DNA of 64,000 bases, from positions 53,198,001 to 53,262,000 of the forward strand of contig NC_087436.1 of assembly GCF_036321535.1 (NCBI RefSeq). The letters run 5' to 3'. This DNA is from Camelus dromedarius (taxonomy: Eukaryota). The translations under genes were made by a program, and so were the position numbers. Position 1 is the first letter of the stretch. The number at the start of each line of letters is the position of its first letter. The notes beneath the pieces were generated by a model. The model was given only the letters and a program-made list of their open reading frames with translations. It made no database searches and was not told the origin of the DNA. This document shows, piece by piece, positions 5,456 through 51,264 of this stretch.

Positions 5456-5815
<360 letters not shown>

Positions 5816-5834
5816 TGATAGTATCAGTACTGCT

Positions 5835-6479: not shown

Positions 6480-6610
6480 TCATCCTGTCCAGTATGGTAG
6501 CCATGTAGCTGTTGAGCGCACGAAATGTGCACAGTATGATTGAGAAACTGAATTTTTAAAAATTATAATAAGTTCAAGTAGTCACATGTGGCTCCTGTTG
6601 GACAGTGCAG
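6480..6610. mobile_element. MER3-like hAT MITE
   Basis: ctgtccagtatggtagcc...cacatgtggct...ttggacagtg with inverted termini. Confidence 0.6.
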
Positions 6611-7454: not shown

Positions 7455-7568
<114 letters not shown>

Positions 7569-11034: not shown

Positions 11035-12715
11035 AGTCCATATCGAATTTGCACTGTTGATAACAAGAAGGAATAGATTACAGTTGGAAATGACTCATTT
11101 CTGAGGCATTTAAATTTTGGGTTTTTTTTTTTTTAAATAATTGCAATCTTTTTTCTTATTTTAACGTGTTCTATTCTCTCAACATTGTTTTGGTTTATTT
11201 GAGGTACTTTATTTAAAAACTTAAGTAATATTACAGTCACTTGTATTAGAACATAGTAAAGGTAGGGAATTCAGTTAGAACTTAAACACATCAAAAGGAG
11301 ATACATTTGCTGAAATAATGGGATTTTCTTTTGTTCATTTCTTTTTAATTTTTAAAAATATTTTTTACTGAAGTATAGTTGATTTACAATGTTTCAGATG
11401 TACAGCAAAGAGATTGAGTTCTACATATATATATATATGTATATATGTATGTGCTTTTTCAGATTATTTTCCATTATAGGTTATCATAAGATATTGAATA
11501 TATATCCCTGTGCTATACAGTAGGGCCTTGTTGTTTATCTATTTTATATATAGTAATTTGTATCTGCTAATCCCAACCTCCCAATTGCCTCCCCCTACTC
11601 TCCTTTGGTAACCATAAGTTGTGTTCTGTCTGTGAGTCTATTTCTTGTTTTCTAAATAAGATACTTGTATCATTTTTTCAGATTCCACATATAAATGATA
11701 CCACATGATATTTGTCTGACTTACTTCACTTAGTATGATAATCTCTAGGTCCATCCACATCCTGCAGATAGCATTATTTCATTCTTTTTTGTGGCTGAGT
11801 AATATTCCATTGTGTATGTTCTTTATCCACTCATCTGTTGATGGACACATCAGTTGCTTCCATGACTTACTATTGTAAATAATACTGCTATGAACATGGG
11901 TGCATGTATAATACTGCTACTGTGAATAATGAGGGGCATTATCTTTTGGTTTAGAGTTTTCACCTTTTTGGGTATATGCCTAGGAGTAGGGTTGCTGGAT
12001 AATGTGGTAAGTCTATTTTTAGCTTTTTAAGGAACCTGCATACTGTCCTCCATAGTGGCAGCAGCAATTTACATTCCCACCAACAGTGTAGGAGGATTCC
12101 TTTTTCTCCACACCCTCTTTAGCATTTATTATTTGTAGACTTTTTGGTGATAGCCCTTCTGACCAGTGTAGGAGATACCTCATTGTAGTTTTGATTTGCA
12201 TTTCTCTAATAATTAGTGATACCGAGCATCTTTTCATGTGCCTGTTGGACATCTGTGTGTCTTCTTTGGAGAAATGTCTATTTAGGTCTTCTGCCCATTT
12301 CTTTGATTGGGTTGTTTGGTTTTTGTGATATTGAGCTGCATGAGCTGTTTGTGTATTTTGGAGGTTAATCCCTTGTTGGTTGCATTGTTCACAAATGTTT
12401 TCTCCCATTCTGTAGGTTATCTTTCTGTTTTGTTTATGGTTTCCTTTGCTGTGCAGAAGCTTTTCAGTTTAATTAGGTCCCATTGGTTTACTTTTGCTTT
12501 TGTTTCCATTACTCTAAGAGACAGATCCACAAAAATATTGCTGCGATTTATGTCAAATTATGCAGTTTGTGTCGTGCTTCCAATCCAAGAACGTGGTATA
12601 TCTTTCCCATCTGTTTGTGTTGTCTTCAGTTTCTTTCATCAGCGTCTTACAGTTTTCAGAATACAGGTCTTTTGCTTCCTCTGGTAGGTTTATTCCTAGG
12701 CATTTTATTCTTTTT

Positions 12716-12831
12716 GGAGGGGTGGCGGATTTAGGTTATTTATTTATTTATGTAATGGCAGTACTGAGGATTGAACCCAGGACCTTGTGCATGCTAAGCA
12801 TGCACTTTACCATTGAGCTGTACTCTCCCGC
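12716..12831 (-). mobile_element. tRNA-Ala-derived camelid SINE (Vic-1 type) inserted in L1
   Basis: Reverse complement has cagctcaatggtaaagtgcatgcttagcatgcacaaggtcctgggttcaatcc (A/B boxes) and a taaa-repeat tail. TSD agg(c/t)a(t/c)tttattcttttt. Confidence 0.85.
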
Positions 12832-13320
12832 AGGTACTTTATTCTTTTTGATGCAATGTAAATGGGATTGTTTCCTTAATTTCTCTTTCTGATAGTTCAT
12901 TGTTAGTGTATAGAAATGCGGCAGATTTCTGTGTATTAATTTTGTATCCTGCAACTTTACCAAATTCATTGATACCTCTAGTAATATTCTGGTAATATCA
13001 TTAGGATTTTCTGTGTATAGTATCATGTCATCTGCAAACAGTAACAATTTTATTTCTTTTCCTATTTGGATTCCTTTCATTTCTTTTTTTTTTTAAATTT
13101 CTCCGATTGCTGTGACTAGGACTTCCAAAACTATGTTGAATAAAAGTGGTGAGAGTGGACACCCTTGTCTTATTCCTGATCTTAGAGGAAATGCTTTCAG
13201 CTTTTCAATGTTGAATATGATCTTATCTGTGGGTTTGTCATATATGGCCTTTATTATGTGGAGCTATCTTCCCTCTGTGCCTGCCTTCTGGAGAGTTTTC
13301 ATCATAAACGGATGTTGATT

Positions 13321-13443
13321 TTTCTTTCTTTTTTTCTTTTTTTTTTTTTTTTAGGCCAGGGCAGAGGAGGGTCAATGTAATATATTCTCAACCCACCCCT
13401 TCATAGGAAGGGAAGTTCTGTCTTGCCACAGTGCCCAACCCAG
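13321..13443 (-). other. Short unidentified retrocopy with poly(A) tail inserted in L1
   Basis: T-tract 13321-13352, 91-bp non-L1 body, flanking duplication ggatgtt(g/ta)atttt. Confidence 0.7.
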
Positions 13444-15649
13444 GGATGTTTAATTTTATCAAAAGCTTTTTCTCATCTTTTGAGATAATCATATGGTTTT
13501 TATTCTTCAGTTTGTTACTGTGGTGTATCACATTGACTGATCTGTGCATACTGAAAAACCCTTGCATCCCTGGGATAAATCTCACTTGATCATGATGTAT
13601 GATCCTTTTAATGTATTGTTGGAGTCAGTTTGCTAGTATTTTGTCAAGGAGTTTTGCATCTATGTTCATTAGTGATACTGGCCTATAATTTTTTTGTGTG
13701 TATGAGTGATATCTTTGTTTAGCATTGCTATCAGGGTGAATGCTGACCTTACAGAACGAGATCAGACATGCTCCTTCCTCTGCAATTTTTTGGAATAGTT
13801 TCAGAAGGATGGGTGTTAACTTTTTTCTAAATATTTGGTAGAATTCACCTGTGAAGCCATCTGGTCCTGGACTTTTGTTTGTTTTGGGTTTTTAAACTAC
13901 TGATTCAATTTTATTACTAGTAATTGTTCTGTTCATATTTTCTATTCCTTCCTGGTTCAGTCTTGGGAGATTGTGCCTTCCTAAGAATTTGTCCATTTCT
14001 TCTAGGTTTTCCATTTTATTGCCATATAGTTGCTTGTAGTAGCCTCTTAGGATCCTTTGTATTTCTGTGGTGTTGGTTGTAACTTCTTTTTCATTTCTGA
14101 TTTTATTGATTTGGGCCCTCTCCCTTTTTTTCTTGATGCATCTGGCTAAAGTTTTGTTAATTTTGTTTATCTTATCAAAGAAACTAAAAACTAGTTCTTT
14201 TGACTTTTTAATGTTTTTAATCTCTGTTTTATTTATTTCTGCTTTGATATTTATGATTTCTTTCTTTCTGCTAACTTTGGGTTTTGTTTGTTCTTTGTCT
14301 AGCTGCTTTAGGTGTAAGGTTAGGTTGTTTATTTGAGATTGTTCTTTCCTGAGGTAAGCTCGCATTGCTGTAAACTTCCCTCTTAGAACTGCTTTTGCTG
14401 TATCCCATACATTTTGGATCATCGTGTTTTCACTTTTATTTGTCCCTAGGTATTTTTTTGATTTCCTCTTTGATTTCTTCAGTGAACTCTTGGTTGTTTA
14501 GTAGCATATCATTTAGCCTCCATGTGTTTGTGTTTTTTTGCAGTTTTTTTCTTGTAGGTGATTTCTAATTTCATAGAGTTGTGGATGGAAAAGATGCTTG
14601 ATATGGTTTCAGTTTTCCCATATATACTGGGAGTTGTTTTGTGGCCTGGCATGTGACCTATCCTGGAGAATGTTTCATGTGCACTTGAAAAGAATGTGTA
14701 TTCTGCTGCTTTAGGGTGGAATGCTCTATAAATATCAATTAAGTCCATTTGGTCTCTTGTATTAGTTAAGACCTATGTTTTCTTATTGATTTTGTTTAGA
14801 TGATCTGTCCATTTATGTAAGTAGAGTGGTAAAGGTCCCCACTATTTTGGTGTTACTGTCAAGGTGTTACTCCCTTTATGTCTGTTAATATTTGCTTTAT
14901 ATATTGAGGTACTCCTATATTGAGTGCATATATTTTTTAAATTGTTAAATCTTCTTCTTGAATTGATCCCACGATCACTATGTAGTGTTTCCTTCTTTGT
15001 CTCTTGTGTCAGTCTTTATTCTAAGGTCCATTGTGTGTTATATAAGTATTGCTAATCTGACTTTCTTTTGATTTTCATTCGCATGGAATACCTTTTTCGA
15101 TCCCCTCACTTTCAGTCTGTATGTGTTTCTAGATCTGAAGTGAGTTTCTTGTAAATGGCATTTGTATGGGCTTGTTTTTGTGTCCATTTAGTCAGACTGC
15201 TGATAAGACAGAGAAATAAGATCTTGTGTGGTTACTGTGTTTTATGCTAGCATTGTTTTTTCTGCCTTTTAAAATGTTTCACTAAAGGATCTGTGATTTC
15301 TAAACATTAATGTGTTCATTCTGATAATTTAGAAAGTCTGAATATCTAAAATCTTATCTAAGCCTGGGTTCCTCAGAAAGCAGAGTCTGAAACAAAGGCT
15401 TATACATGACTGCTTTTAGGGGGGCAGGCAATGTCAAAAAGGGTAAGGAACAAAGAAAATGAGGCAAAAAATGAAGGAAAGTCCATATGAGAAAGTATTA
15501 TCAAGTTAGCTGCTGTTTGGTTTCAAACCAGTTGACTGCTCAACCCTAAGTGATGAGATACTTTGGATAATATTACCATTTTATAAATGAGGATCCTGAG
15601 ACTTAGAAAGGTTGAGTTTTAAAAAACTCAAAGCCTAAATGTATGCTGT

Positions 15650-30996: not shown

Positions 30997-31140
30997 TTTG
31001 ATTTCCTGATCCAGATAGTTTGGTATGCAGACAGTGCTCTCTTTGACATCAGTCTTGGCACTTATCACCTCCGAAGAACAAGAGCCAGCAGAAGAGCATG
31101 CCTTTGGTGGTGATGGTGAGTTTTTTACCTTAATTTCTTC
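30997..31140 (-). CDS. C4orf17: C4orf17 coding exon 4 ([48 protein letters not shown])
   Basis: atttag acceptor, AAA|gtaag donor, 144 bp phase 0-0. Confidence 0.93.
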
Positions 31141-32039
31141 CTAAATCAAAGGTCAAAGGTATAATACAATCAATATGTACTTGCATCCATTTATATTTTC
31201 TATGAAAATTGAATGTAAAATGAATGAGAAAGTGCATAGCTAATTGAGAGACATACATGAAAGTAAAAAGAGGTTAGTTTTAATCCTCCATTAAAAATCT
31301 AATTATCAAATATTTGCATTTAGAGACAGAACAAATAGTGATACATTATTTACTTTTTATGAAACCATTTTAAACCCTTGGTTAAACATTCAGGTAATAA
31401 TTTTTTAATATTTAATGTGAAACCATTCTTTATCTTGCAGCTCCTGGTAGCCCAACTCATGATACATGGGATTTTCTGTTGAGTTGGGGAGATTTCTGTT
31501 TTATGGCTGGGAAAAGTCAGCTGAGAAGTTTCATGCTATCTGTGAAGAGACTACATGGTGTGAACTGCAGCTTCCTGACTGCTCAATGCCAGCTGAGAGC
31601 TGGAGAATTGGAGCGGTAAACTAAATTACTTCCCTTGACTAGCTGGAAAAGGAAATAGGCCATTTTCTTGTTCTGGGAGGTAAATATACTTTTTGCAATA
31701 AAAAAAAAAAATCTGTGTCTATTCCAAGAAAGGCTTTTTAATCTTCATAAGTGATATTTTAAGATACATAAGCTGATGGCTGAATGTGTCAACAGCCGGG
31801 ACTGTGGTGATTAGAACTGATAGAACAAAAAGTTGAAAATAAAGCTATCTTGTACATAGATGCACTCCTCTGTTAAGGTTTATTATGTAGAATTCTTGTT
31901 TTGGGGAATAGCTATTATATATATACACACACACAGTCACACATACATATGTGTAAATGGTATGTATATACACACGTATTTGCTTACATGCATACATATA
32001 TGTGTGTATATTTACATGTATATTCCATATGTAACATAG

Positions 32040-32892
32040 GAATTAATAGATCAAAAAGTGAAGCGGAAATGAGACACGAGGTTATAGGATGTTTAGTAGC
32101 CAGTTTTGCCCTGAGATCACTGTCTTACCCTAGAGAACGAAAACTTTCCTTTTTACAGCCTTAAAGTTTCTGAAAGACAGGACTCAAGGCTCAGGACCCA
32201 AATAAAGGCCAACAAAGGGCTACATCCCTCAAGGTGAAGGTGACCTAGAAGTCCAAAATCCTTGAAGAAATATAGCCTGAGATCAAAGTTTGAACTTGGG
32301 TAAGTTGATCTAGGTTGGTAGGGCCTCTGGGTTCCTACAGAAACAAGCACCAATTATCTGGAAGAAAATCCATTTATCATGAGCTTCAGATTCCTATAAA
32401 TGATTTTTCATACATAATGTCCAGGAATTAAGTCATGAATCAAACAAAAAATTATAATGTGAATTAGAAAAAAGATTAACTTAATCCTAATAAAAATGTT
32501 ACATAGCAAAAATTATGAAAGCAGCTAAAGCAATCCTCAGAGGGGGTTTTGTAGCTTTATATATATGTTACAAAGATAAAAGAAGTTAGAAAAAGAACAA
32601 TAAAATACAAAGTGTGAATGGAAAGAGAAAAAAGATAAATAAATCAACAAAAGAGAAACATACAACACAGAGGATCAAAAAAAACCCACAAAAATTAGTT
32701 ATTTGATATACTAATAAAATTGAAACTGATCAGACACAAGCTAACAAAACTGATACGTAAAAGGGTACATCTTACAGATTCTGTGGATATTATGTATAAT
32801 ATGATCCATAAGTTTTAATATTTAAACAAAATGAATAATTTTTAGAAAAAGAATATATTACCAAAATCATTTCAGGAAGAAATAGACACCTA
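32040..32892 (+). mobile_element. Ancient LINE-1 fragments (host of the younger insertion)
   Basis: gaaagcagctaaagcaatcctcagaggg; agttagaaaaagaacaataaaa; caggaagaaatagac ORF2 motifs. Confidence 0.6.
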
Positions 32893-34990
32893 ACAGGCAG
32901 GTTGACAGAACAGGAGGCTGTGGAACTCATCTCCCCCTACAAACACATCAGAAATACAATCTACATGTGGAACAATCCTCACTGAAAACTAACTGGAAAC
33001 TGGCAGAAAGACTCCTGTATAATCAAGGCTGTGAGATCCACGGGGTTAATGGGGGAGGGTGCAGCTCAGTGGTAGAGTGCGTGCTTAGCATGCACGAGGT
33101 CCTGGGTTCAACCCTCAGTGCCTCCAAATAAATAAATAAGTAAATGAAACAAACCTAATTACCTACCCCCTCCCGCACCAAAAAAAAGAAAGAGCCACAG
33201 AGAATAGGGTAGGAAGGGAAGAGAATTGACCTGTGCCGCAGGGAGGGACTCGGAAGTAAAGGGAGAATCCACAGGTTGATACTCGCCCTGAGGAGTAAGC
33301 GGTTCAACGCACTTGTTGAGCACCCAGCCCTCAGGTCCTGCACAGGGAAGATGAGCCCCCTTGGCTGGGTGGAGGACCGCTGGGCCTAGCAGGAGGGCTA
33401 CAGGAAGCCTTGACTCTGCCCTGGACTCTGGACTCTGCTCGTGAGGAGCCCACATGTACTGGCTTGTCCCTGAGGCAGCTCAGTGAGGAAGGATTAAAGA
33501 CTGCCCCAGTGGCTGCCCGGTTCCTGCCACCACCCCAGCGTGCGTCGCAGCCTGAGCCAAGTGAACGTTTCAGCCCTGCTTACTTCACCTTCACGGATCC
33601 CCACTGGAGCGAGGGCTGCCACAGCTGGGGAGAGAGCTTGACTGTGAAATGCAGAGGTGACTCAGATCTGGGGTAGCTTCTGGGTGGGGTGGGGTGGGGT
33701 GGCCATTATTGGTGCTACTCAGGCAGGTGCTACTCAGAAGCAGCCTGGAACTCTGATAGCAGCCAGTCCATCACAGCCTGCTCCTGATACATACTGAGAG
33801 CCCACACAGCCCCACCTGCCCTGCACTGTGGCTGCACACAGGGTCAGGGCAGTAGAGGCTGGGAGGAGTGATCGGCTGTAACGGACAAAGAGGACTTGAA
33901 CCCTGGGCTGCGTCTGAGCAGGGTGAGGGCAACAACTGCTGTTGTTCACACAGGTGGCACATCAGAGCCAGTTTGGATTCTGTCTGTGGCCAACCTGCCA
34001 CAGCCCATGCCCCATCATGAGCCTGCAAGTCCCCCTCTTCCTTCAGCACAGTTTCCCTCTGAGGCAAGGGTCCCAGTGCTGGGAGAAGGGGAAGCACACT
34101 TAAAGGGAATAGCCACCTCAGACCTGACCCTCAGAGCTGCTGCTCCAGCAGCTTGGGATCCGACCCCACCACCATTAGGGTGGTGATGGCCACTGAGCAG
34201 AGAGGAGCCCCACCTCACACCTGGCTCAAACCTTAGTCCCTCCATCTACATCCCCATCTCCTACCAAGGTGACAGCTGCCAGTACCTTCTGAGGAAAGGC
34301 GTGACTTATATCCACATCAAATCTAGCCCTTCAACAACAAAAAAATCTAGCTCTTCAACCAAAGGCACTGGGCATAAGCAGTCTGTATAGGGGTGTTCCT
34401 GCATATGGACACCCCTTCAAGACTGCAGTTGGTAACTGTTTCACCTAAATTTATAGAGACAGAGAAAATTAAATAAAATGAAAAGGCAGAGGACCTACTC
34501 TCATTGAAAGAGCAAGAGAAAACCCCTGAAAAAATGACACAGAGATAGATAGTCTATCAGACAATGAGTTCAAAAAGTTGGTAATAAAAATGCCTTTAGA
34601 ATCACTAGAGTAGCAGATACCTGATGCCCTGTAGAGGGAACTGGTCTTTCTTTCTTGGGCCCAAGGCTCCATTACCTAATTCTCCTGTATATTCAAAGAA
34701 GTTAATGAAACTCCCACCAAGATTGTCATAACCTCCTTCACTGCTGGATTGAATTTCACATTTCCCTGGCTAACTTTAAATCATTTAATCTTGTCCCATT
34801 TGACTCTGAAACCACTACTATGTATAAAACAGGTAAGCAACAAGGATATATTGTACAGCACAGGGATTATAGCCATTATTTCATAATAACTTCCAATAGA
34901 GTTTAATTTATAAAAATACTGAATCATTAAGCTGTACCCCTGAAACTAATATAATATTGTAAATCAACTATACTTTAATTTAAAAAAGAA
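32893..34990 (+). mobile_element. Internally deleted LINE-1: 5'UTR + first about 38 codons of ORF1 + 224-bp foreign insert + last about 175 bp of 3'UTR
   Basis: GC-rich 5'UTR, ORF1 ATG at 34478 (MKRQR...NEFKKLVIKM), 3'UTR tail ending in an A-run. Probable TSD aagaaataga(c/aa)acct at 32877 and 34990. Confidence 0.8.
33050..33190 (+). mobile_element. tRNA-Ala-derived camelid SINE (Vic-1 type)
   Basis: ggggagggtgcagctcagtggtagagtgcgtgcttagcatgcacgaggtcctgggttcaacc + taaa repeats + acctaattacctaccccc + A tail. Confidence 0.88.
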
Positions 34991-35014
34991 AGAAATAGAA
35001 AACCTGAACAGTTT

Positions 35015-37740
35015 TATTGATGAAACAGATTTCAAAGCAAAGAATGTTATCAGGGTTGAAGATGGTAAATTTATGATGATAATAGGGTCATTTCATCAAG
35101 AGGACAAAGCAAATAGGTATTCTAATAAAAGAGCTTCAAAACATATGATTAAAACCTGATAGATATGAAAAGAGAAATATAGAAATCCACAATTATAGTC
35201 AGATTTCAACCCCTTTCTCTCAATAACTGATAGAAAAAGTAGGCAGCAAATTAGTAAGGCTATAGAAGACTTGAATAACAGTATTAACCAACTTGACCTG
35301 ATTGATATTTAGATTATTCTCCCCAGAACAGCAGAGTGAACATTCTTTTTACAGACACATGGAAAATTTAATTAAGGTCGGCCATATTCTGGGCCATATA
35401 ACAAGTCACAATAAATTTTGAAAGTCTCAAAGTAAACAAAGTATGTTCTCTGACCACAATGGAATTAAATTGGAAATCAGTCACATAAAGATAGCATTAA
35501 AATCCCCAAATATTTGGAAATTATATAACATAATTTTAAGTAACCCATGTGGTCAAAGAAGAAACTTTAAATGAAATTAGGAAATATTTTGAACAGAATG
35601 AAAAGGAAAACTCAACATAGTAAAATTTGGGGGATGCAGCCAAAACAGTGTTTATACAAAACTTACGATATGTGCTTATATGAGAAGGGAAAAATGTCTC
35701 AGGTCAACGACCTAAGTTTTCATCTTATATAAAGACATGAACCAAAGTCAATGAAATGGACACAGAAAATCAAAACAATAAAGATCATCGATGAAATGAA
35801 AAGCTGATTCTTTATGAATCAATGAAACTAATAAACCTCTAGCTAGACACATCAGGGAAAAAAACAGACATAAGTTACCAATGTCAGGAATGAGAGACAG
35901 AACATCTCTACAGGTCATATAATCATTTAAAGGATATTTTATGAATGACTTTATACCGGCAAATTCAATGACAGATGAATGGACAAATTTTTTGAAAAAC
36001 AAACTACCAAACTCACTGAAGAAGAAACAGAAAACCTATAGCCTATATCTGTGAAAATAAGAAACTGAATTTGCAGTTAAAAACCTTGATTCAAAGAAAA
36101 CTCCAGATTCAGATGGCTTCACTAAAGAATTCTACTAAACTTTTAAATAAGAAACAATACCAATTCTACATAAAATTTCCCGGAATATTAAAATGAAGTT
36201 TCCAACTTATTTTATGAAGCAAGTATTTTACTGATACCAAAACCAGGAAAGACATTGCAAATAAACTACAACTATTTCTTATGAACATAGACACAAAAAT
36301 GCTAAACAATGTTTTATGAAATTAAATTAAATGTAGAAAAAGAAAACATATGACCAGGTGGAGTTTTTTCCCAGCACTGCAATGTTAGTTTAACCTTTGG
36401 AAGTTAACCAATACAATTCACTATATTAACAGACTAAAAAGGAAAAATAATATGATCACTTCAAACAGATGCAAAAAAGCATTTGGCAAAATCCTACCCC
36501 TATTTCAGATAAAAATTCTCAGAACACTAGGAGTAGAAAGGAACTTCCTCAGCCATATAAAGAGCATCTGTGAATAACATAACATAACATCATAATGGTG
36601 AAAGTCTGAACGCATTCCCCCTATGATTAGGCACAAGGCAAGGATGTCTGCCGTCATGACTTTTATTCACCATTGTGCTAGAGGTTAGCCATCGCAGTAA
36701 GGCACAATAGAGAGAAACAGCATGTGAATTTGAAACTATAATAGAAAATTTTTTAATTTGGGTTTCATCAAAATTATAAATTTTGGTTCTTCAAAAGACA
36801 CTATTACAAAAAATAATAATAATAAGCCTCAAGCTGGAAGAAAACATTTGCAAAATATGTATATGACAAAAGGATTATATCTAGAATACATAAGTAACCT
36901 CTAAACTTAATAATAAAAAGACCAACAACCTAATTTTAATATTTGAACTTACACTTTTCGTAACAAGATATATAGATGGCAAGTAAGAACATGAAAAGAT
37001 GTCACTGGTCATTGGGGAAATGCAAATTAAAACCACAGTGTGATACCAATACATAACCACTAGATTAGCTAAAATTTAAAATGCTGACCAGACTTAAGTT
37101 TGGCAAGATATGCAGAAAAGTAAACTCTCATACACGGCAGGTGGGAATGTAAAATCGTACCGCCATTTTGGAAAACTCTTTGGCAGTTTCTTAACAACTT
37201 AAACACCTATTACAAGACCCAGTCATGCCACTCCAGCGTATTCACCCAAGAGAAAAGAAAATATCTACCCATACAAACACTTGTACACAGATGTTTATAT
37301 CAGCTTTGTTCAAAATTGGAAACAAGCTAAATGTCTATCAATAGATGAACATGTAAATAAATTCTGGGATACCAGTAAAATTAAATACTATCAGCAATAA
37401 AAAAGGAATGAATGATACACATAACAACATGGATGAATATTAAAATAATTATGCTGAGCTAAAGGAACCAGGTTTTAAAAAAGAGAGTTCACTATAAATT
37501 TCATTTACATAAAATCCTAAAAATTGCTTGCTAATCTTTGGTGACAGCAGATAAATGTTTGCGTGTGGGAGGACCAGGGTCATGAGAAAACTTCAGGGAG
37601 TAATAGGCATGTTCATTCTCTTGATTTCAGTGGTGGCTTCCCAGGTGTGGATGTACATTTGTCAAAAACGCATCAAACTGTACACTTTAAATATATGCAT
37701 TTTATAGCATATTAAGTTATACTTAAATAAAGCTGTAAAA
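35015..37740 (+). mobile_element. Old LINE-1 ORF2 (EN/RT remnants, internally deleted) + 3'UTR (L1MC/ME-like)
   Basis: Numerous ORF2 motifs (ctctgaccacaatggaattaaattggaaatc; gatggcttcact; ggaaatgcaaattaaaaccaca), ends aataaagctgtaaaa. Confidence 0.85.
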
Positions 37741-37843
37741 AATAATTGTGAAAAGTGCCTTTCCAGGAAGGTATGTGAAGAAAAGGAGAGGAAATGACAG
37801 AAGTCAAAACTAACTAGGTAGCTGTAAATAGTTGTTTCTTTAC

Positions 37844-37908
37844 CTTCTGAAGTCCTAAGGGATTCTCACTGGAAGTTCTGAAGCACTCTTTGATTTTTCG
37901 ACAGGGCT
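37844..37908 (-). CDS. C4orf17: C4orf17 coding exon 3 (EPCRKIKECFRTSSENPLGLQK)
   Basis: catttcag acceptor, AAG|gtaaag donor, 65 bp phase 1-0. Confidence 0.92.
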
Positions 37909-39369
37909 CTGAAATGAGAGTGGGGAAAAACATACTTATATCAAACTGAAGAAAAACATTCACATGACATATACATCATATGCTGAGATAGATGAGAGTT
38001 TATCTGAATTTCATTTAAGGTCAACTCGGGGATACATTTATAAATATTAGAAAACTTGCAGGTAGAATTGTCCTATGATAACATGATAAAAGCATATTTA
38101 TATTACAAAACTATTTCTATGCCCAGGAAGGTGATTTAAAGAAACACTATAAGAGCTTCCTTGATCTGGGTAAACTGATTTTTTAAAGTGCATATTTAAG
38201 TTTAAGAGGAGATATGTGCTGAGTTAAAATTACATCCTTTATTTTACTTATTTCATCTGTCTTTCAATCCTACCCATTTCACACAGTCATCTTACTAAAT
38301 CCCCTGAATTACCCTAAACTACCTGAATATTTGCTTAACTTCCCTTTGCATTAATTTAAAGATATAGTCTGTGTAAGCGATGCTGTGTTGTTGTTTTTTT
38401 ACTGAAGCCAACACAACAACTTGTTAAAAGATGAAAAGATTTTATATGTATCCCCAGTAGTAACTGAATTCATTAGTTTTAGCTGAAGAAAGATTTTTTT
38501 TTTTAATTTGGAAAGCTAGCTCTCTCCAAGTAGTGAGAAGAAAGTTATGAATGCTGAGTCTACTCAGTGTTCATCTGTGGCAAACGGAAACCACTCTAGC
38601 TATTTTAAGCAAAAATGTCAATAATGCAGGGAATTAAGTGTTTGTAATATCATTGGAAGGACTGGAGCAATGAACTCTGGTCTTGACCTTCACAAATCAC
38701 TTCAAGAACAACACCGTGCACCTGGCCCACCACGAGGGGCACAGCCTTTATCCCAACTCAGGAGGCATGGCTATGTCAACTGCTGTCACAAAAAGCCCCT
38801 GGACCACTGCTGCAGTCAGAAAGCCACCACATCTGCTGACTTGCCTTTTGACATCTGTAAATCCAGAATCTGAACCCTGGGATGTTGCAGTAGGAAACCC
38901 CTGTCTCCAGTCATGCTTGGTAGCAGACAGCAACCAAAAAGATGCCTTCAGCTGCGCCCACATCTGCGATACAAATCTTACTAGATGGCACCATCTAATT
39001 CTCATCAAGGGACCCTTGCAAATGTAATTTTTAAAGTTTCCCGTTTTACAGTATAAGAAGGGACAGCAAAAAGAAGGTGAACAGGTGGGCTTTAGTTCTT
39101 CCTGGCTAGTGGAAAGGAGGGAAGAGGGTGAAGGAAGTGAACAAGTGTGGAGGCTTTAGGATGGAATTACATAGTAAGTACTCTATGAATGATCCCTTTT
39201 ATCGTTATTTTTTGGGAAATATATATATACTTTACCACATTATACCAAAATAATTTTCTTGTGCCCTGAAACTTAGTAAGAGTTTATAATTATATAAGGC
39301 AGGAGAAAGAGAACTAGACACAATTTCTACCAATCAGAATTACTTTTATTGTACTGTGCCTTTTAGATT

Positions 39370-40146: not shown

Positions 40147-40356
40147 CAGAATGAGGCCGTGGGGGCGCTCTGAGCCTGTTTGGGCCTGATGAGGCTCCTC
40201 TGACGGGGCTCTCCAGGGCTGCAGTGCTGGGTGGGTAACTGCATTTGGCATACGGTATCTCATCCTTCTCTGAGTGGTGGAACTGGCCGGCACCCCACAA
40301 TGTTCTGAATGAGTCCTCATCATCATTCACGGTACAGATCGGAATGTTATTCAAAC
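40147..40356 (-). CDS. C4orf17: C4orf17 coding exon 2 ([22 protein letters not shown]...APPRPHS)
   Basis: acctag acceptor, G|gtgagt donor, 210 bp phase 1-1. Matches recalled human [12 protein letters not shown]. Confidence 0.93.
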
Positions 40357-43116
40357 CTAGGTGAATAAGATCAAAAGAACAAACGACCAGGTTAGATTTT
40401 GGCAGGTTTAGTTTGAATGATCAGCAATTTCTCAACCAGATACTATGAAATGTACATAAGATGTCAGGCTTCAAATTGTATGAACCAGTGCTAGGTGGAC
40501 ATTCTTTGAAAGTCAGTGTAGCAAATGATGTTTGCAATATACGCTTCCTTACAATGTCCTGCCATCTTGTTAGCTTTGGGAAGCAAGCCCACATCTTTGA
40601 TCTTGGTCTGGGAGTCCAGCGGAGTAGATGTGCTTCTCTCCCAGACAGACCTTTCGTTTCCCGTCTTGACGATGACAAAGAGGGATTACGACAAAGTCTA
40701 AATCACGAATACCGGATTTAGACTTCTGAAAGCACCCAGAATGTCCCAGTGTAACAAGTCCTAAATGACGTATACTGGCTCTTCTTTTGTCCTGACAGAA
40801 GGCAAAAAGCTGTTGGAGCTAAGGATAGGAGGCAGGATAAGGGAGATTGCGTGGGAAGGAAGGAAGGAAAACTTGGTATAAAGGAACTCCCTTCCTCACG
40901 TCAGAGCTTTCTGGGTTCAGTCACTCTCCTATAATAGCTGTTTGCTTTTGGCTCAAATACTGAATTACAGACAGGCCCTCTTTTCAGTATCAACATTGTG
41001 TCACGTCGAATCAGACAGCTTAGGAAATGGGCACGTGCAGGGCCCTGTTCTGTTAATCAGTGAATTATGAGAGGTAGTAATAGATGGCTGCTTTGTCTCC
41101 CAAGAAGTCGCACAGGAAGCGTCTGGAGTGTTTTGCATATTTGCTCATTCTTCCAAATCTCCTCCTAGTACTGTCAGTTCACCCCCTTCTTATCCATCTG
41201 CTTAAATGACATCAAAAACGTCTTTGCTGACAACCCTGCCTGCAAAGCATCCCATCAGGCTCTGTCCCCTGTGCTCTTGTACTCTGCCCACAGCATCTGC
41301 TTGCACACTGCTGGGCTGAGCAGCACTAGAATGTCAGCTTCACGAAAGCACGGAGCTGTCTCTTGTTTGCTGCTCTATTCCCAGTGTCTAGAAGAGTCCC
41401 TGGCACAAAGTTGGTGCTCTGTGGTTCTTTGTTAAATAGACGAATAACACAGCCAAATATAAATCTTTAATTTAGTCTAATACTTAGAACTTTACTGATA
41501 GTAACTGGTACCAAATAGAAATGAGGAAAAAAATTGAAGACAGCATCACGTCTTATCATTTTATGTTAAGCACCTGGGTGAGTGATTGGCCCATGCACAT
41601 AGTGAAAAGTTGCCTACCAAATATAATAAATAAAATATCAACCCAGAGACAAACCAATGGAAAAGTCCTATTTTCTCTGCTACTTCCTTTAATTAGTAAA
41701 AATGTGTGTTATGTGTGTGCGCACGTTGTGTGTGTCTGTGTGGGTGGGAGGGCTTTTTTCCCCTTCATTTCTACTTTTGTTTTCAGCTTTGTTTTTCTTA
41801 CTCATCCACATATTTCCTTTTCCAGTGGAAAAATATATTTAACAACATATACATGTAAATATATCATATTGGACATAAGTAATAAAGAATTCATATTCCA
41901 TCTATACAAGAGTTAGGAAAGAACTCTATAAAAATATGCAAAGGGTCAAATGAAATGGCTTTAAAGTGGTTTCAGAGTCAAATGGGACAACATTAAATGA
42001 TTTAAAGTTAGCCAGGGAAATGGGACATTCAATCCAGCAGTGAAGGAGGTTAGAGACAATCTTGGCGAGAGTTTCATTAACTTCTTTGAATATGCGGGAG
42101 CCTTGGGCCCTAGAAAGACCAGCTCCCTCTACAGGGCATCAGGTATCTGTTACTCTAGTGATTCTAAAGGACCCACCTTGTGGGCGAGGGTCAGGTGAAG
42201 ATGAAAATCTCACATCCTTGCTAATTCTCTGATAGGCAACCTCAGTTTGATGAGAAAGTAGCTTTATTACTAATGCTACTAAGTTGGTAAACAGTAAGAA
42301 AGTGTTTTAAATGATGTGGTTTCTTTGTTTATAAATTTGATTTATTTAATCTACAGTAGTTATCTACAGCTTGGCAAGAATTTGCTTGTTAAGGATGTGA
42401 AATATTTCAAAGGAAATCAGATATATTCAATGAGTAGTTGACATTTAAAGCTTTTAAAGGGTATTTATTAACTAAGCTTGTAACGGGGAAAATGGCCAAG
42501 GACTTCACTGTGAAGGGATTTGAACATTTACTGCAGAATCATTGGGGGAAAAATGCTGTAAAGGAGAAGTCATGGGGATAGGAAAAAATATAGTACTATA
42601 TGGTGTGACAGAAACTAAATTTTAAAATGTGAAAGACAGCAAGGTAAGAGAGAGGGAAAGAAGGAGGGAGAGATGAAAGCAGGAAGGAGGGAAGGGAGGG
42701 AGAGAGAAAGGGAGGTGAGAAAGAAAGGATTGAGAGAGAGAAAAAAAATGCATAAAATATGTGCTTCTCCAGGGCTGGTATTTAGCATGGAGATGCTAGC
42801 ATGACTGTATAGTTTGTTAAAAATTGAAATAACTTTCATTCCACTTGGTCAACTGCTGCCCTGAGCTTCCTGAGTGGCCCCTTTGGCACCTCTCCAGGTC
42901 CCCTTCCTATCACTCAAGTAAACCAAGGCTTAAGGCTGGCACAGAGGGTGTCTGCAGGCCTCTGCTCTAGCTCCAGTGCTGGTCCCCGTAGTCAATGCCT
43001 GGGCCTCACCAGCGGTTAAATATTTTGAATAATAACCCTGTGTTTATCCACCATAATCATCAGGTAGCCCAAATATATAGGAGAGAGAGACATCCTAGAA
43101 CCCTGAGTCACCTTAC

Positions 43117-43243
43117 CTTTGATGTGGCAGACCCTTCTGGGATGAGGGGTGTGCCTGACTAGAAAACAGCTTCCATTTCTCGCTGAAATATGGCTGCCTT
43201 TGCTCTCAAACTGAGGAGCAGACACTGGGGACTTCAGGCTCAT
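43117..43243 (-). CDS. C4orf17: C4orf17 first coding exon ([42 protein letters not shown]); exon probably begins at 43334
   Basis: ATG at 43243 (in-frame alternative at 43249), G|gtaagg donor, upstream acceptor cttctgtgacttcag and in-frame TGA at 43330. [17 protein letters not shown] motif recalled from human. Confidence 0.92.
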
Positions 43244-45269
43244 GTTCATGGAGTGCTGGTTCCCCCTCTCCACTGTTGCCACAAAAGGCCTTGGAGTCTC
43301 CCTTGTTAACCTCACTTCCGGGCGTGCTCAGACCCTGAAGTCACAGAAGGACAGTCGTTCTGACAAGGGGTTCTAGGCATTTTCTCACACATCTAACATT
43401 TCTCCACCTTCTTTGCACGGAGTTGTCACTCATGTCAAAGCAGTGTGAGGCTCTTATTTTAAGACCAAATGTTTTGAGAACATTGAAATCAAAATAGGCA
43501 TGAGGGGGAAAGAAAAAAGTTTTCCCTGGAAAAATCAAAGCATTTGTGAGAAACATAAAATACATTCTGCACTTAATTACATTAAAGTCACTGTTGGCTT
43601 ACCAACATAAAAATATATAACATGGTTATCAATTTTGATAAAGGAAGTTAAAGTAACAGCTTTAAAATGCAGCACCTACAAACATGCTTTACATTAATTT
43701 AACTGTAAATAAGGACTTTCATACTGTACTTTAAGAAAACCAACATCTTAAATTTGTATCTTCTAAAAGGATGGTAAAACTTGAAGGAGAAGAAAAATCC
43801 AGTAGCAAAAGAATGATATTACATCTATAGATGATAAACTGGAGAACCTCTGGCATGTTGTTATTTATAACATTCAGTAACATTTAATGATTTTCTCTCA
43901 ATCACTCAGCAATCATTTATTAGACACCTACAGTGTCATAGGCCTAAAGGATAAAAGATAAAGTTACATCCCTTAGGGAATTCACAATCATGTGGAAAAG
44001 AAAATATATGGATTAGGAACATAGGAAAGAGTTTAATTTTCTTGAAGGTGATACACTAGTCTTGAAATTTAAGAAGTTTGTTGTATATTTTCTATCTTAC
44101 ACGGAAGTCTTATGTATCATAGTATTGGGAAATACACATTTTATTTCTATAGCAAAGAGTTTTTCTGGTTAGAATAATTTGCAGTGTCAAAATACATCCA
44201 TATTTCTAGAAATCGATCTCAAGATTTTCTTGAGGCCAGTATTTTTAGTTCATTGACTATTTTTTAAGAGAATCTATGTTCAAGTTTTTCTTGGTATACA
44301 TTGAGTATATGGCATATAAATTACCAGCTATAAATTAGGTTGCCACAAAACATCTGATTTTTGTAAATTCTAAAATTATTCTAGGCTGAATAAAATACAT
44401 TCAAATATTTTAAATTCAGAAAATACTATTATCTAACAATAAAAAAGTATGTGAGGAGTTAGTTCCAGCTTTGTGTAACTCAAACGTTAGACTTACTCAT
44501 TCTACTTTCTGAGTAGGGCCTTTTGTAAGTTCAAGTCAGTAAATTCATTTTTTATCTTTGCTGGGGCAAAAGGGTACAGTAGACAATTTAGGAGGTGGAA
44601 AGGACACTGAACTGGAATTTTAAAATGGAATTTATGGCCCTAGCTTTGCCATTAATGAGCAAAGTGACCACAGATGGATTGTTTTATTTTCCTAGATTTT
44701 TATTTGCTCGTCTGAATGAAACCTGATGGAATTGACTTAGATGCTAGCTGGGATACTCAGCTATTCTACTGTGTGGTCTTCTCCACACCAATTCTCTTAG
44801 GTTAATTTGAAGGGTATTTTCAAATTCCCTTATTTTTTTAGGGAATTTGAAAATACTTTAAATTCTGGTATAAAAAGTCGAAAAGCAAACAATGCAGAGA
44901 ATTCTTCTTCCCCCTGAGAAAATCGCAGTGCCTCAGGGAAGTCGGAAGCTCATCTTGCTCTTGTATTTTAAAAGGGGCTATAATGCTTACTCTTGGATTA
45001 CAGAAAATTTAATAATCTGATGTTATGGCTTTTATGTTTCTATTGGAAGTTCCGATGCTAAAAGAATAAAGCCAATATATAAATATTTTATCCACATCTT
45101 TCATTAACAATTCTATCAGATCTAAAATATACTTTATGTACTATTAAGAATCTGATCTAAACTTAAATTTTCAGAAATGAAGTAAATGAATGACTCAGGA
45201 CAAAGTTGTGCTTTGAATTGTTCCAGCAAGTGATCTAATGACAGAAAAATAAAATTATCTCTAACCTGC

Positions 45270-46435: not shown

Positions 46436-49400
46436 TTCCCCCTCTTGCCTATTTTGACTTTGACACGCTTTAATTGACTAATAATTCATTGCCTGATGAT
46501 ATTAATGGATAGCTTTCCAAAGTTTATGCATTGATTTGGAATAATATTTCTCTATTAAGATTTCTCTTTATAACAAGCATTGATTTTGGACTGTAACTTT
46601 TTAAGACATAAACTCAGAAGAAATGAAAGAATCATTCATTCTCATGCAAAAAGGTGGATTTTTTTCTACAAAAGACAGGAGAAATATGAGAAGAACATAT
46701 TATTAAAATAAGGAATTAATAGAACTGGAGACCCAGGAAACATATAACTTACTTATTGATAAATAAATATTATCTTTGTTAGAGAACCAGAAATCTCATT
46801 GATTTTGTAATGAAGTGACTAAAAATTTTCCTAAGCCAGTATTGGGGAGATCCATCAATGCAAAACTTGTCAAATGTAGATGATGGATTTTGTAGACTAA
46901 ATCAGTTATAGTTACTTCTACAAATTTGCCAATGGATTATTTACTGGGGACTGAATATGGTCTTGTGATAAACAGTAGGCCTATTTTAAAAACAAACAAA
47001 AATTTAAAACAGCATAAGGAAAACACAAAATACACACTTGTTTCCAGTATTTTAGCTTAATAGGTATTTGCTAAAGAATAGGGAGCAGCAGTTCACAGCC
47101 TGTTTTCCCCATCATGATGCACATAACAGACAATGTTCACATGGAAGACGCATTCCCAGCACATGTTCAGATCTTAAAAGACTGAATCCCAAAATTGTGG
47201 GGAAGCAAAGTACCAAAAAAAGGTTTCAATCACCGTAACTACAGTGTGTCGGTAACAGCTGTATAAGCGGGTTCTAACTCCCATCTTTCCAATCAGGTAA
47301 GCATGTGGCATTACAACAAAATGCCAGCGATAGTGTTAGAGAACTTACAAATCTTTGTATTAATTCTTTTTAAAAAACAAAACAGTTGGCAAATATGAAC
47401 ATTGTAGTTATTATTAGTAAATATCCTGGGTCTTGCCTCACTGCCTGTTTCTTGCAAAACCTAGACTGAGACCTGACTTAGAGGATACACGCAAAAGATT
47501 TGCTGAATGAAAGTAGCCACGTTCTGTTTATAATTCTACTTTAATTGTGATGCTAACACCGTGCTTTCACCCTGAGGAGAAAGAGAAAAACCTGTGTAGA
47601 GTTAACTCTGTGGGAAAAGCCAATTAAAATTATCATTCACCTTTCAGAGAATTGTGTAAGTACTTCTGAGAACAGCATTTCCTTTTCTAAATCCTCTTGC
47701 ATCTATTGATTTATTAGTAAATTGTTGAACTTTATTTAGACCACGTGACAAAAAATCCTCAAAATCAGCGGTTTTAAAAACATTATTAATCGATCTAGTC
47801 CTGGCCACTGTTACTTAGAAAATACCATGGAAATCTGTATTAAATATTAATATTCTTAGTCCAAAACAGCACATGTGCCAAACGTCTGCTTACAGAAGGA
47901 GAACACAGTGTGTGACCAATGAGCCGCTGACAGTTACTATGAATTCCTAGGGATGTAAAGACCATTATTTAGGTGAGGACTGCTGGACCGCTCTGCATTT
48001 GCAGAGCCCCTAGCCTAGGGTACGTACCACTCAGGTCTGCCAGTGGCTCCCTCCCTCACTTCATTCATTGCTCTGTCCAAACAAGACTTTCTCCAAAAGA
48101 CTCCCTTACCCCTCTCCAAGGTAGCTTCCACCATCACTCCCAGCCTCATTCACTGTCCCTCAAACCCCCTTAAGCTGTCTTCATGTCTTCATAACACATA
48201 ATGTGTGTCACTCTTTGACATTTTTTTTTTTTACATTTCTGTATTTATTTTCTGCTTCTCTCAACAGGACACAATAATCAAGCAGGCAGTGATCTGGTCC
48301 AGTTTTCCACCTGTGTACTCCCAGTACCTGTCACAGTTTATGCTCTATAAGTATTTATTAAATGAAGGTAAATATTTCCACAGACTAAATGTCTTTATCC
48401 CACAAACTCAGCATATTTTATTTATATGATCTCCTCAAAGATAGGTGGTTTACTTTAAAAGATAATGCCCATTTCCTCAAAACCAATTAATTGGCTTTTA
48501 CATGAACTTGATTGAGGTCCATTAACTAATCATATTTAAAATTTTAGAAAATTACTTTAATGATGAATTTAAAATTATACCTGAGGACAGTTTTAAAAGG
48601 TGATCTGGTTGACAGGAACTCAAGGCTGTTGATACCCTACAAGCCTTATAAGGGGTCTGTCATTGATCTCCTTAAATCTTTGCACTGGAGCTGGGAATTT
48701 TTAATTGGCAGAGACAGTCTACTGTTTAATGCTTCCAAAAGAATGTAACTGTCTCCCTCCAGTTTCTCCTACTCTGGCTCCAAGGAGCCTATGTGGCTCC
48801 CTGGTTGTTAAGATACACTACACAGCCTAGCAACGTGGTAACATTCCTTAGGGAAATCTGCGTTCCAGAACCTCTCCACCTACCATTCTTCTCAGAGCTT
48901 CACTTACCCACAGCTTGACAAAACCACGTGGCCGCCGTGACTTTTCTCAGTTTGGAATGTAAACTAGAGCTGAATCAAATATAAAAGAAAAAGAAGAGAG
49001 AGATAAAAAGAGGAATTTCAATCATATTGATAAGTCTCTGCAAAATTTTGTTCAAAAAACACACACCATGTAGATGTAATCAAGTCAGGATGTCCACACT
49101 GATGATTCGTTCAACAACCTTGAAAAAAATTGAAATTTTAATTAAAAGTCATAAAGAAGCATTAAGTAATACAGTTAAAGTAATAAAATTTTGTGTGAAA
49201 CGTGAAAATGGACGCTCATACATAGGAATTGCACATGTGCACATACACACATGTGCGTGTACATATATGTTGCTGTCAACCATCAGGATTATATATGCTA
49301 GTGCTTCCCAATAATTTTCTTTTCAGACCACACATGACTTAATTTCTGAATTACAGTCTCTGAAAGCAATGTAGCTAATTTCTGAAAGACAAATACTAAT

Positions 49401-50318
49401 TTAAAACAATGCAAGGTTAGAATCTAATCTATTTTCTTGACTGGCCTCAAGAATTAAAGGCTCACCATCTCCCCATGCCTATAAATCATTCAAGACTTAT
49501 GAATTTTATAGGAGATTTAAAGGATTTTCTAATGTAATTTTTGCATTTTGGGATTTTCATCCTATACTTTGTATCAGTTAGGAGTTGGCTTTCTACAGCC
49601 AATAGAAAGATTATTTCTCCCTCACATGAAAGGGTTCAGCAGTCCAGGGTTGGTATAGAAGGTCCGTGGTGTCATGGACTCAGGCTTGTTCCACATTTTA
49701 GGTCCATCTTCCTTGATATGTGGCTTCTCTTCTGGAGGTTAACTCTTACCCAAGATGGTTCCTGAAGTTCCAGTCACCCAAATGGCTACTGGCATCAAAT
49801 CAATAGTCCAGGCAGAAAACAAGAGGAAAGAGGGTAAGAGCAAACAAGGACACATGCTAGCCACATGCTTCCTGTGTCTACCAGGTCTTTCCATGAGTCC
49901 CAGGCAATAATCTGGATGCACTGATCACTTGTAGCTGCACAGAAAATGTAGCTTCTTCACAGAGCACATTTCCACCCCTTTTTAAAATAGGGGCTCAGAA
50001 AACATTTATTAGGTTATAAGCAGACGTCTCTACCATGGATCCTGACATTCATACCTGACTCCTATGGAGAGGTCTCTACACTCTGTGGGTTGTACCTCTC
50101 CTTGGAGGGACCAGGAGTCTGTCAGAGGGAGCTATGCCCCTTGCTATATACTGTGGTTCTGTTATTTTACTTTTATGAGGACTTGTGGGGACCTTTCTTG
50201 TCTCATTACTAGGGAAAATGATACAGCTGGTTGGTCTGGGCACAGTTTGCAGTAATTCCGTCAGAACCAAGGGATAGAGATGGCTCTGCGGCACAGCTCA
50301 GGGCAGCACACATACCTT

Positions 50319-50898: not shown

Positions 50899-51264
50899 GG
50901 TGTGCACAGGCAGGACACGCTGTGAGGCCCGCTCTCTCCACGTGCGAGCAGCGTGGCCGTGTCAGAGCTGCGGACAGATCAGGCCTGTTCCATCTGTATC
51001 CTCATTTCACATTTACTGTAAAAATGCTACTGGTGTCTGATTAGCATATAAGAAGGTAATGTAAATAATTTATGAAAGGCAAAGTGCTAATTTAAAACAA
51101 TGCAAAAAATAAAACTTAATTTCATCTGTCTTACCCATGCTACACTCTGTTCTGTCAATTTTAGGAGCACACGATTCAGTCCTGAATTTGCGACAGATAT
51201 CCAGCGACCACAGAAGACAGTACTTCGTGATCTCCAAAGTGCGACAAAAGTACTGATGTAAATG

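What the first reader, a model, noticed from the sequence alone, without database searches (positions are those of the whole stretch)
34593..34816. L1 body replaced by an inverted copy of local DNA from 7 kb away (templated insertion)
Seen: 34593-34816 (cctttagaatcactagagtagcagatacctgatgccctgtagaggga...gactctgaaaccact) is the reverse complement of 41965-42170, with scattered substitutions and two small indels. It sits exactly where the L1 at 32893-34990 jumps from about codon 38 of ORF1 to the last about 175 bp of the 3'UTR, with only 1-3 nt of junction microhomology. The L1 keeps both ends and a probable TSD. Inference: either several kb of a full-length L1 were deleted and patched by copying nearby DNA (microhomology-mediated or polymerase-theta-like repair), or the L1 reverse transcriptase switched template onto local DNA or nascent RNA during integration.
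Basis: partly seen in the sequence, partly recalled or inferred. Interest (0 to 1): 0.72.

Follow-up and report, generated by a model that had tools for sequence, protein, structure and literature searches.

The report
Camel LINE-1 patched with inverted intron
A dead LINE-1 jumping gene inside an intron of the camel C4orf17 gene lacks its middle and carries in its place a backwards 206-base copy of another intron of the same gene 7 kb away, likely the scar of an ordinary deletion repaired by copying nearby DNA, though a switch of the element's own copying enzyme onto the host gene's RNA is not excluded.

Summary
34593-34816 is an inverted copy of 41965-42170 (194 of 205 aligned bases identical, three indels, E 6e-73). 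It joins L1 ORF1, about 38 codons in, to the last 170 bases of the L1, with at most 1-3 nt of microhomology. The L1 keeps a diverged 23/25-nt target-site duplication, and 20 runs from 9 studies hold 92-96% of the stretch's words, so misassembly is unlikely. Added here: both copies lie in introns of camel C4orf17 (minus strand; a cancer/testis gene in human). The insert reads in pre-mRNA sense and its donor lies upstream in transcription. That fits a reverse-transcriptase switch onto nascent RNA, but arises by chance about one time in four. Three weak clocks (ORF1 changes, TSD, CpG loss) make the L1 about twice as old as the copy (ratio 2.2, CI 0.9-5.1), favouring a later deletion with templated insertion (0.55) over integration-time switching (RNA 0.25, DNA 0.12). 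Each mechanism has published precedent. Genome-wide copy number and orthologues could not be tested. A tidy single example of a known kind; low interest unless orthologues show that L1 and patch arrived together.

The parts
32874..32896 (+). left copy of the L1 target-site duplication (end of an older L1 ORF2 fragment)
   Evidence: 21 identical, 2 mismatches, 2 one-base gaps against the right copy; 1 of 20,000 null pairs as high
32897..34477 (+). L1 5' UTR, 55% GC, CpG o/e 0.18 (window background 0.20), TpG and CpA in excess
   Evidence: identity as 5' UTR inferred from its position between the TSD and the ORF1 ATG
33050..33190 (+). tRNA-Ala-derived SINE nested in the 5' UTR (camelid Vic-1 type; name recalled)
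   Evidence: tRNA-Ala call; 84% and 81% to two other copies in the window
34478..34592 (+). start of L1 ORF1, 38 codons in three frames (two frameshifts), cut at the left junction
34593..34816 (+). 224-nt insert, an inverted copy of 41965-42170, bridging the missing L1 body
34817..34986 (+). last 170 nt of the L1 3' UTR with A tail
34987..35011 (+). right copy of the target-site duplication
   Evidence: translates like the ORF2 motif at the end of the left flank
41965..42170 (-). donor of the insert: 206 nt of intron between the first two coding exons of C4orf17, no exon or Rfam family in it
43115..43249 (-). C4orf17 first coding exon
   Evidence: 45 of 45 residues identical to Camelus protein P0003; human C4orf17 primer, 1 mismatch; SPATIAL domain 1-17
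40160..40357 (-). C4orf17 second coding exon (3' end approximate), between donor and insert
37844..37924 (-). C4orf17 third coding exon, between donor and insert
30997..31140 (-). C4orf17 next coding exon (3' end approximate); places the L1 inside the gene, antisense
   Evidence: further exons at 28630-28550, 27174-26983, 25925-25881, 24392-24192

Best explanation
A full-length L1 likely inserted first, antisense, into a C4orf17 intron and later lost most of its body in a single deletion whose repair likely copied 206 bases backwards from an intron 7 kb away before rejoining the L1 3' end. Shown: the L1 ends and TSD, the two junctions, the inverted copy and its source, the host gene. Inferred: that a full-length element once stood here; the order of events; the enzyme (replication-based template switching of the MMBIR/FoSTeS type, or polymerase-theta end joining). 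A 3' end at one side of the break would invade the opposite strand at one end of the donor, copy 206-221 nt, release and anneal through 1-3 nt at the other side of the break. Both copies then drifted. The 15-nt difference lies between two CTCC repeats and most simply is a later loss from the donor.
For: (1) The copy ends flush with both L1 breaks and has no TSD of its own. (2) The anatomy matches the commonest complex-deletion class in 1000 Genomes: 'Ins with Dup and Del', 501 of 1,651 complex deletions of mean 3.1 kb, 871 with a template within 10 kb, typically with microhomology (PMC4617611, passages). (3) The L1 looks older than the copy. ORF1 differs from the commonest residue of the 16 closest relatives at 6 of 38 codons, 5 of them nearly private, about 5-6% per non-synonymous site plus 2 frameshifts. 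The TSD has 2 substitutions and 2 indels. The copy pair shows 2.7% per lineage. All events pooled give a ratio of 2.15, CI 0.88-5.10, one-sided p 0.047. The 5' UTR has lost an estimated 64-77% of its CpGs, against 23-49% expected since the duplication. (4) Integration-time templated insertions in tumours typically copy from within 15 bp of the site, not 7 kb (bioRxiv 10.1101/2024.08.27.596794, section 4 read).
Against: No clock alone is significant: substitutions only p 0.08-0.16, indels p 0.11. With only the first two relatives, the window differed at just 1 of 24 codons where they agree. The relatives come from unnamed sources and probably other species, so some 'private' changes may be family differences. 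The CpG estimate rests on an assumed 6-15x rate multiplier, and both detectable CpGs of the insert have also decayed. The insert is in C4orf17 pre-mRNA sense with the donor upstream in transcription, as the RNA model predicts. The right break lies only 170 nt from the L1 end, where reverse transcription commonly stalls (median 503 bp for non-inverted L1s). No undeleted allele was seen.
Confidence: 0.55

Rival explanations
1. Integration-time double template switch on RNA. ORF2p would copy the last 170 nt of L1 RNA, jump to nascent C4orf17 pre-mRNA, copy about 206-221 nt of intron, then jump back to L1 RNA at ORF1 codon ~39 and finish the 5' end, leaving one TSD around the whole.
For: The insert equals the C4orf17 pre-mRNA sense strand, and the donor is upstream in transcription of the L1 site. 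Human C4orf17 is treated as a cancer/testis gene (PMC4278271, passages). The switch point is near the 3' end, where L1 cDNAs usually stop. One somatic case of pre-mRNA from the vicinity of the site being co-inserted is reported (PMC10191854, passages). Template switching gives same-sense chimeras (10.1101/2025.02.02.635956, passages).
Against: It needs two jumps and completion of a full 5' end. Orientation and side would match by chance about 1 time in 4. The clocks suggest the L1 is about twice as old as the copy. Camel germ-line expression of C4orf17 was not tested.
Confidence: 0.25
2. Integration-time switch on DNA. The growing L1 cDNA would leave the RNA, anneal to genomic DNA 7 kb away (SDSA-like), copy it, and return to the L1 RNA or to a second L1 cDNA.
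For: 22 templated insertions among 3,598 somatic L1s, templates under 250 bp, explained this way. The size here fits.
Against: Those templates typically lie within 15 bp of the site. The same dating objections apply as for the RNA model.
Confidence: 0.12
3. The segment is an interspersed repeat, or the 5'UTR-insert-3'UTR unit is a non-autonomous L1-derived family, and the nearby inverted copy is a coincidence or a later conversion.
For: Genome-wide copy number could not be measured (no genome held; no read-level result obtained).
Against: Exactly two copies in 64 kb, with ends flush to the L1 breaks; the donor is embedded in intron with no terminal direct repeat beyond chance size; no Rfam family. 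A family source elsewhere could not easily have picked up this locus's own intron.
Confidence: 0.05
4. Assembly artefact.
For: No read-level view of the junctions was obtained.
Against: The copies differ at 11 sites and 3 indels, unlike a collapsed or duplicated assembly. 20 of 24 listed runs, from 9 studies, hold 0.92-0.96 of the sampled words of 32800-35200. Insert-specific words are 10.7% of that stretch (253 of 2,371), so every holder must carry part of them, and the 0.96 runs most of them.
Confidence: 0.01

Closest known systems
Complex deletions 'Ins with Dup and Del' of the 1000 Genomes SV map (Sudmant et al. 2015, PMC4617611; passages read)
   Same: A kb-scale deletion bridged by a duplicated sequence from a template within 10 kb, with short microhomology at the junctions, attributed to template switching in a single event.
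   Different: Here it is an old, apparently fixed camelid event (5.4% pairwise divergence) wholly inside an L1 that keeps both ends and its TSD. The undeleted allele was not seen.
L1 co-inserted with nearby pre-mRNA (Nam et al. 2023, PMC10191854; passages and Extended Data Fig. 9 legend)
   Same: Local host-gene sequence in pre-mRNA sense inside an L1 insertion, explained by reverse-transcriptase strand switching.
   Different: That is one somatic event. The figure was not visible, so whether L1 sequence flanks it on both sides is unknown. Here L1 lies on both sides, the 5' end is complete, and the event is germ-line.
Templated insertions in somatic L1 (Zumalave et al., bioRxiv 10.1101/2024.08.27.596794; section 4 read)
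   Same: A non-L1 genomic template under 250 bp incorporated in an L1, duplicating a genomic segment.
   Different: Templates there typically lie within 15 bp of the insertion site; here 7,148 bp separate the copies.
Internally deleted polymorphic L1s (xTea, PMC8219666; passages)
   Same: A co-linear L1 with both ends and a missing middle; rare (0.46% of polymorphic L1s per person).
   Different: No bridging foreign sequence is described in the passages seen.

Membership tests
Deletion with locally templated insertion (Ins with Dup and Del; MMBIR/FoSTeS/TMEJ scars) | Inserted sequence is a recognisable duplicate of a template within 10 kb | tested here: met
   (194 of 205 identical; 7,148 bp apart)
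Deletion with locally templated insertion (Ins with Dup and Del; MMBIR/FoSTeS/TMEJ scars) | Sequence is missing between the insert's flanks | tested here: met
   ORF1 relatives continue past the left junction; the L1 3' end resumes at 34817
Deletion with locally templated insertion (Ins with Dup and Del; MMBIR/FoSTeS/TMEJ scars) | Short microhomology, no long homology, at both junctions | tested here: inconclusive
   No long homology; at most 1 nt left and 1-3 nt right, inferred from protein relatives and from other L1 subfamilies. That much can be chance.
Deletion with locally templated insertion (Ins with Dup and Del; MMBIR/FoSTeS/TMEJ scars) | An undeleted ancestral allele existed before the event | tested here: inconclusive
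   No orthologue available. Indirect clocks give an L1/copy age ratio of 2.15, CI 0.88-5.10; CpG loss 64-77% against 23-49%.
L1 chimera by reverse-transcriptase switch to host pre-mRNA | Foreign part in the sense of a host transcript, same orientation as the L1 RNA | tested here: met
   C4orf17 on the minus strand; donor in its intron; insert reads in pre-mRNA sense on the L1 strand
L1 chimera by reverse-transcriptase switch to host pre-mRNA | One TSD and one A tail enclose the whole | tested here: met
   not discriminating, since a later internal deletion also leaves them
L1 chimera by reverse-transcriptase switch to host pre-mRNA | Both parts arrived at the same time | tested here: inconclusive
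   The clocks lean against but include equality
L1 chimera by reverse-transcriptase switch to host pre-mRNA | Host gene transcribed in the germ line | not tested
   Only human evidence (PMC4278271 passages); no camel RNA examined
Somatic-type L1 templated insertion | Template typically within about 15 bp of the insertion site | tested here: not met
   7,148 bp
Non-autonomous L1-derived family or interspersed repeat | Multiple genomic copies with the same structure | not testable with these tools
   No genome held. Two copies of the segment in the window. Collection scans found nothing, but also found no mammalian L1 at all, so they are uninformative.
Mammalian L1 | ORF1 of the Transposase_22 family after a GC-rich 5' UTR; 3' UTR, A tail, TSD | tested here: met
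   (3 of 3 scanned longer relatives carry PF02994 and PF17489)

The most novel reading that the evidence does not exclude
A germ-line, fixed record of L1 reverse transcriptase jumping twice: from its own RNA onto the nascent, unspliced transcript of the testis gene it was inserting into, then back onto L1 RNA about 5 kb further up, to finish a complete 5' end. If such L1-host-L1 sandwiches recur with a bias to pre-mRNA sense and upstream donors, integration would be shown to take place beside the active host transcript. Here the patch also puts a 200-bp inverted repeat around two C4orf17 coding exons.
Probability: 0.25. Interest if true: 0.5.

Novelty: new member of a known kind. Interest (0 to 1): 0.22.

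Why it matters
Under the best reading it matters little. It is a clear fossil of a deletion with templated insertion, a class counted in the hundreds in human SV maps, and at most a phylogenetic marker for camelids. Under the RNA reading it would be a rare germ-line example of a double template switch involving nascent host RNA, of which I found one somatic precedent in the searches made. It suggests a genome-wide test that is cheap to run: among internally deleted L1s bridged by local unique DNA, is the bridge biased to host pre-mRNA sense?

Tried and rejected
No whole genome was held and no read-level result was obtained, so copy number, junction uniqueness and empty or undeleted alleles remain open. 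Exact-pattern scans for the insert (metagenome contigs) and for this L1 family's 3' end or ORF1 start (viral, metagenome and genome contigs) gave 0 loci. As they found no mammalian L1 at all, they say nothing on copy number. Four of the 24 runs listed held next to none of the words (small runs of 23-31 million letters); this is no evidence either way. Look-ups of earlier findings by place and by sequence were empty. The SINE's own TSD was tried as a clock and rejected (9,798 of 20,000 null pairs scored as high). SINE-to-SINE distances (16-20%) give only an upper bound on its age. Staggered-break inversion was rejected: the donor's flanks are not L1 and the L1's pieces are co-linear. Splicing or trans-splicing was rejected: no GT follows ORF1 in frame with the relatives' Leu, and no AG precedes the copied segment in the donor. 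An independent mobile insertion was rejected: there is no TSD at either copy (best flank repeats 6-7 nt, not at the junctions). The donor is not a structured RNA (z -0.15; 3 Rfam matches, all far below gathering score). The 15-nt extra piece has no other exact source in the window. Pfam on the two short ORF1 relatives gave only sub-threshold coiled-coil matches. Abyzov et al. 2015, on template distances at deletion breakpoints, was not held (reference line only), so nothing is taken from it. Supplements of the papers were not read; Supplementary Table 13 of PMC4617611 and Extended Data Fig. 9g of PMC10191854 may hold closer matches.

Full report
Observation. Self-BLAST of the 64-kb window gives one strong match outside L1 and SINE families: 34593-34816 against 42170-41965, E 6e-73. 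Global alignment shows 194 of 205 aligned bases identical, 11 substitutions (6 transitions, 5 transversions; two are CpG in the donor and TpG/CpA in the insert) and three indels: 4 nt extra in a TCTT run and 15 nt extra between two CTCC repeats in the insert, and 1 nt extra in the donor. A more sensitive search with 1.4 kb around the donor found no extension beyond these ends and no third full copy. The copies are 7,148 bp apart.

The L1. Left of the insert is an ATG at 34478 and 38 codons in three frames. Read through its two frameshifts, it found 2 relatives among 5 candidates, at 71% and 66% identity; both continue past the junction. One of them retrieved 5 longer proteins among 163 candidates, and the 3 that I scanned all carry the L1 ORF1 domains PF02994 and PF17489. 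Right of the insert are 170 nt with an A tail that align to other L1 3' ends in the window. Around the whole lies a duplication, 32874-32896 and 34987-35011, with 21 identities, 2 mismatches and 2 one-base gaps; 1 of 20,000 random pairs from the flanking old L1s scored as high. A tRNA-Ala-derived SINE is nested in the 5' UTR (the family name Vic-1 is recalled, and one search gave only a search listing). The element is therefore 1,696 nt of 5' end, 224 nt of insert and 170 nt of 3' end. The missing body of about 5 kb is inferred from recalled L1 anatomy. Junction microhomology is at most 1 nt on the left (next residue Leu in 13 of 15 close relatives covering it; the donor and L1 differ at the base before) and 1-3 nt on the right. 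Chance can give that much.

Not an artefact. The copies differ at 14 places. 20 of 24 listed runs, from 9 studies of one organism label, hold 0.92-0.96 of the 237 sampled words of 32800-35200; the other 4 are small runs holding next to none. Words specific to the insert make up 253 of 2,371 in that stretch, so the holders must carry part of them, and the best holders most. Junction-spanning reads were not seen and no genome was held, so copy number is untested.

Host gene. Two minus-strand frames flanking the donor hit consecutive parts of the Pfam SPATIAL domain. The second is 97% identical to a Camelus dromedarius C4orf17 homologue (64 hits among 94 candidates, nearly all named ones C4orf17). 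That protein maps to exons at 43249-43115, 40357-about 40160, 37924-37844, 31140-about 31000, 28630-28550, 27174-26983, 25925-25881 and 24392-24192, and two published human C4orf17 primers match at 43128 and 27078. The donor lies in the intron after the first coding exon; the L1 lies two introns further on, antisense. The insert, read on the L1 strand, is C4orf17 pre-mRNA sense, and its donor is transcribed before the L1 site. Human C4orf17 is handled as a cancer/testis gene (PMC4278271, passages); camel expression was not tested. Under a DNA-repair model this orientation and side would occur about one time in four (inference).

Direction of copying. The insert's ends coincide with the two L1 breaks, while the donor sits in continuous intron without terminal repeats. 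The donor is therefore the likely original (inference; no outgroup seen).

Timing, the discriminating question. If L1 and patch arrived together, the L1's divergence from its family should equal half the insert-donor divergence: 2.7% (2.2% without CpG; 95% range about 1-5%). Of 157 ORF1 relatives examined, 101 covered at least 25 of the 38 codons and 16 were at least 60% identical. The window differs from their commonest residue at 6 of 38 codons, 6.4% per non-synonymous site (CI 2.3-13.8%); 5 of the 6 window residues occur in at most 1 relative. Looser sets gave 7 of 38 (n=31) and 10 of 38 (n=51). Against this, with the first two relatives alone the window differed at only 1 of 24 codons where they agree, and the relatives are probably from other species. 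Pooled with the TSD, the ratios of L1 to copy are 1.9-2.4 for substitutions (one-sided p 0.08-0.16), 3.3 for indels (p 0.11) and 2.15 for all events (CI 0.88-5.10, p 0.047). The 5' UTR is 55% GC with CpG o/e 0.18, equal to the window's 0.20, and has TpG and CpA in excess. Estimated CpG loss is 64-77%, against 23-49% expected since the duplication for assumed multipliers of 6-15. L1 promoters are CpG-rich when active (10.1101/2025.02.02.635956, passage). All three clocks point the same way; none excludes equal age. In years the copy is about 5 million years old at the 5e-9 per year implied by PMC8605555 (passage), or 10-18 million at assumed rates of 1.5-2.2e-9.

Mechanism. Best (0.55): a later deletion inside a full-length L1, repaired with one excursion to the opposite strand 7 kb away. 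This is the anatomy of 'Ins with Dup and Del', 501 of 1,651 complex deletions in the 1000 Genomes map, where 871 had a template within 10 kb and 17 a likely RNA template (PMC4617611, passages). Rival (0.25): reverse transcriptase jumps from L1 RNA to nascent C4orf17 RNA and back. It is supported by orientation, side, a switch 170 nt from the L1 end (median 503 bp for non-inverted somatic L1s) and one somatic precedent (PMC10191854, passages). It needs two jumps and fits the clocks less well. Rival (0.12): an integration-time switch onto DNA, as in 22 of 3,598 somatic L1s, whose templates however typically lie within 15 bp. Repeat family 0.05; artefact 0.01.

Comparison and novelty. It works like a deletion with locally templated insertion and meets the two features of that class that could be tested firmly; microhomology and the ancestral allele are inconclusive. 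It fails the distance feature of somatic L1 templated insertions. It meets the orientation feature of L1/pre-mRNA chimeras, but co-arrival is unproven. Searches turned up no description of a germ-line L1-host intron-L1 sandwich; these were keyword searches of an open-access library, most hits were seen as listings only, and supplements were not read. Two earlier notes of this scan describe like events in other genomes (unchecked), which suggests the kind recurs. Papers seen: PMC4617611, PMC10191854, PMC4278271, PMC2912911, PMC4937565, PMC8605555, PMC8219666 and 10.1101/2024.12.14.628481 as passages; 10.1101/2025.02.02.635956 as abstract, outline and passages; 10.1101/2024.08.27.596794 as passages and all of section 4; Abyzov 2015 not seen.

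Verdict. Real, well preserved, and a new member of a known kind. Interest 0.22; 0.5 if orthologues show that the L1 and its patch arrived together.

Noticed in passing
window 32410-32896 and 35012-37745: The L1 sits between two different, older L1 pieces: an ORF2 fragment on the left, and on the right a nearly whole decayed ORF2 that starts in the endonuclease region. They are only 70% alike where they overlap in ORF2 (311 of 446). Their junction falls within about 20 nt of the end of the right TSD copy, a coincidence I cannot explain.
   Followed up: partly
window 34593-34816 with 41965-42170: In C4orf17 pre-mRNA the two copies form a roughly 200-bp inverted repeat enclosing two coding exons (40357-about 40160 and 37924-37844). 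It could pair and favour exon skipping, back-splicing or A-to-I editing; untested.
   Followed up: no
window 34668-34686: The 15-nt difference between the copies lies between two CTCC repeats, so it is most simply a microhomology-flanked deletion in the donor after copying. The insert would then preserve the older state of the intron.
   Followed up: partly
window 5456-9012 (+): Last exons of a tRNA m1G methyltransferase gene (Pfam PF01746; TRMT10A by recall), tail to tail with C4orf17.
   Followed up: no
window 11359-14750 (-): A 5'-truncated L1 with long open ORF2 stretches (201 and 149 codons) and a SINE inserted at 12738-12832; a different subfamily from the patched L1.
   Followed up: no
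window 1-1400 (-): 5' UTR and broken ORF1 start of another L1 subfamily at the window edge (tblastn).
   Followed up: no
window 44804-44864, 31966-32011, 7404-7432: Short imperfect palindromes seen as reverse-strand self-hits; probably chance or microsatellite-derived.
   Followed up: no
window 49362-49414 and 51052-51105: 54-nt direct repeat, 85% identical, 1.7 kb apart; not examined.
   Followed up: no
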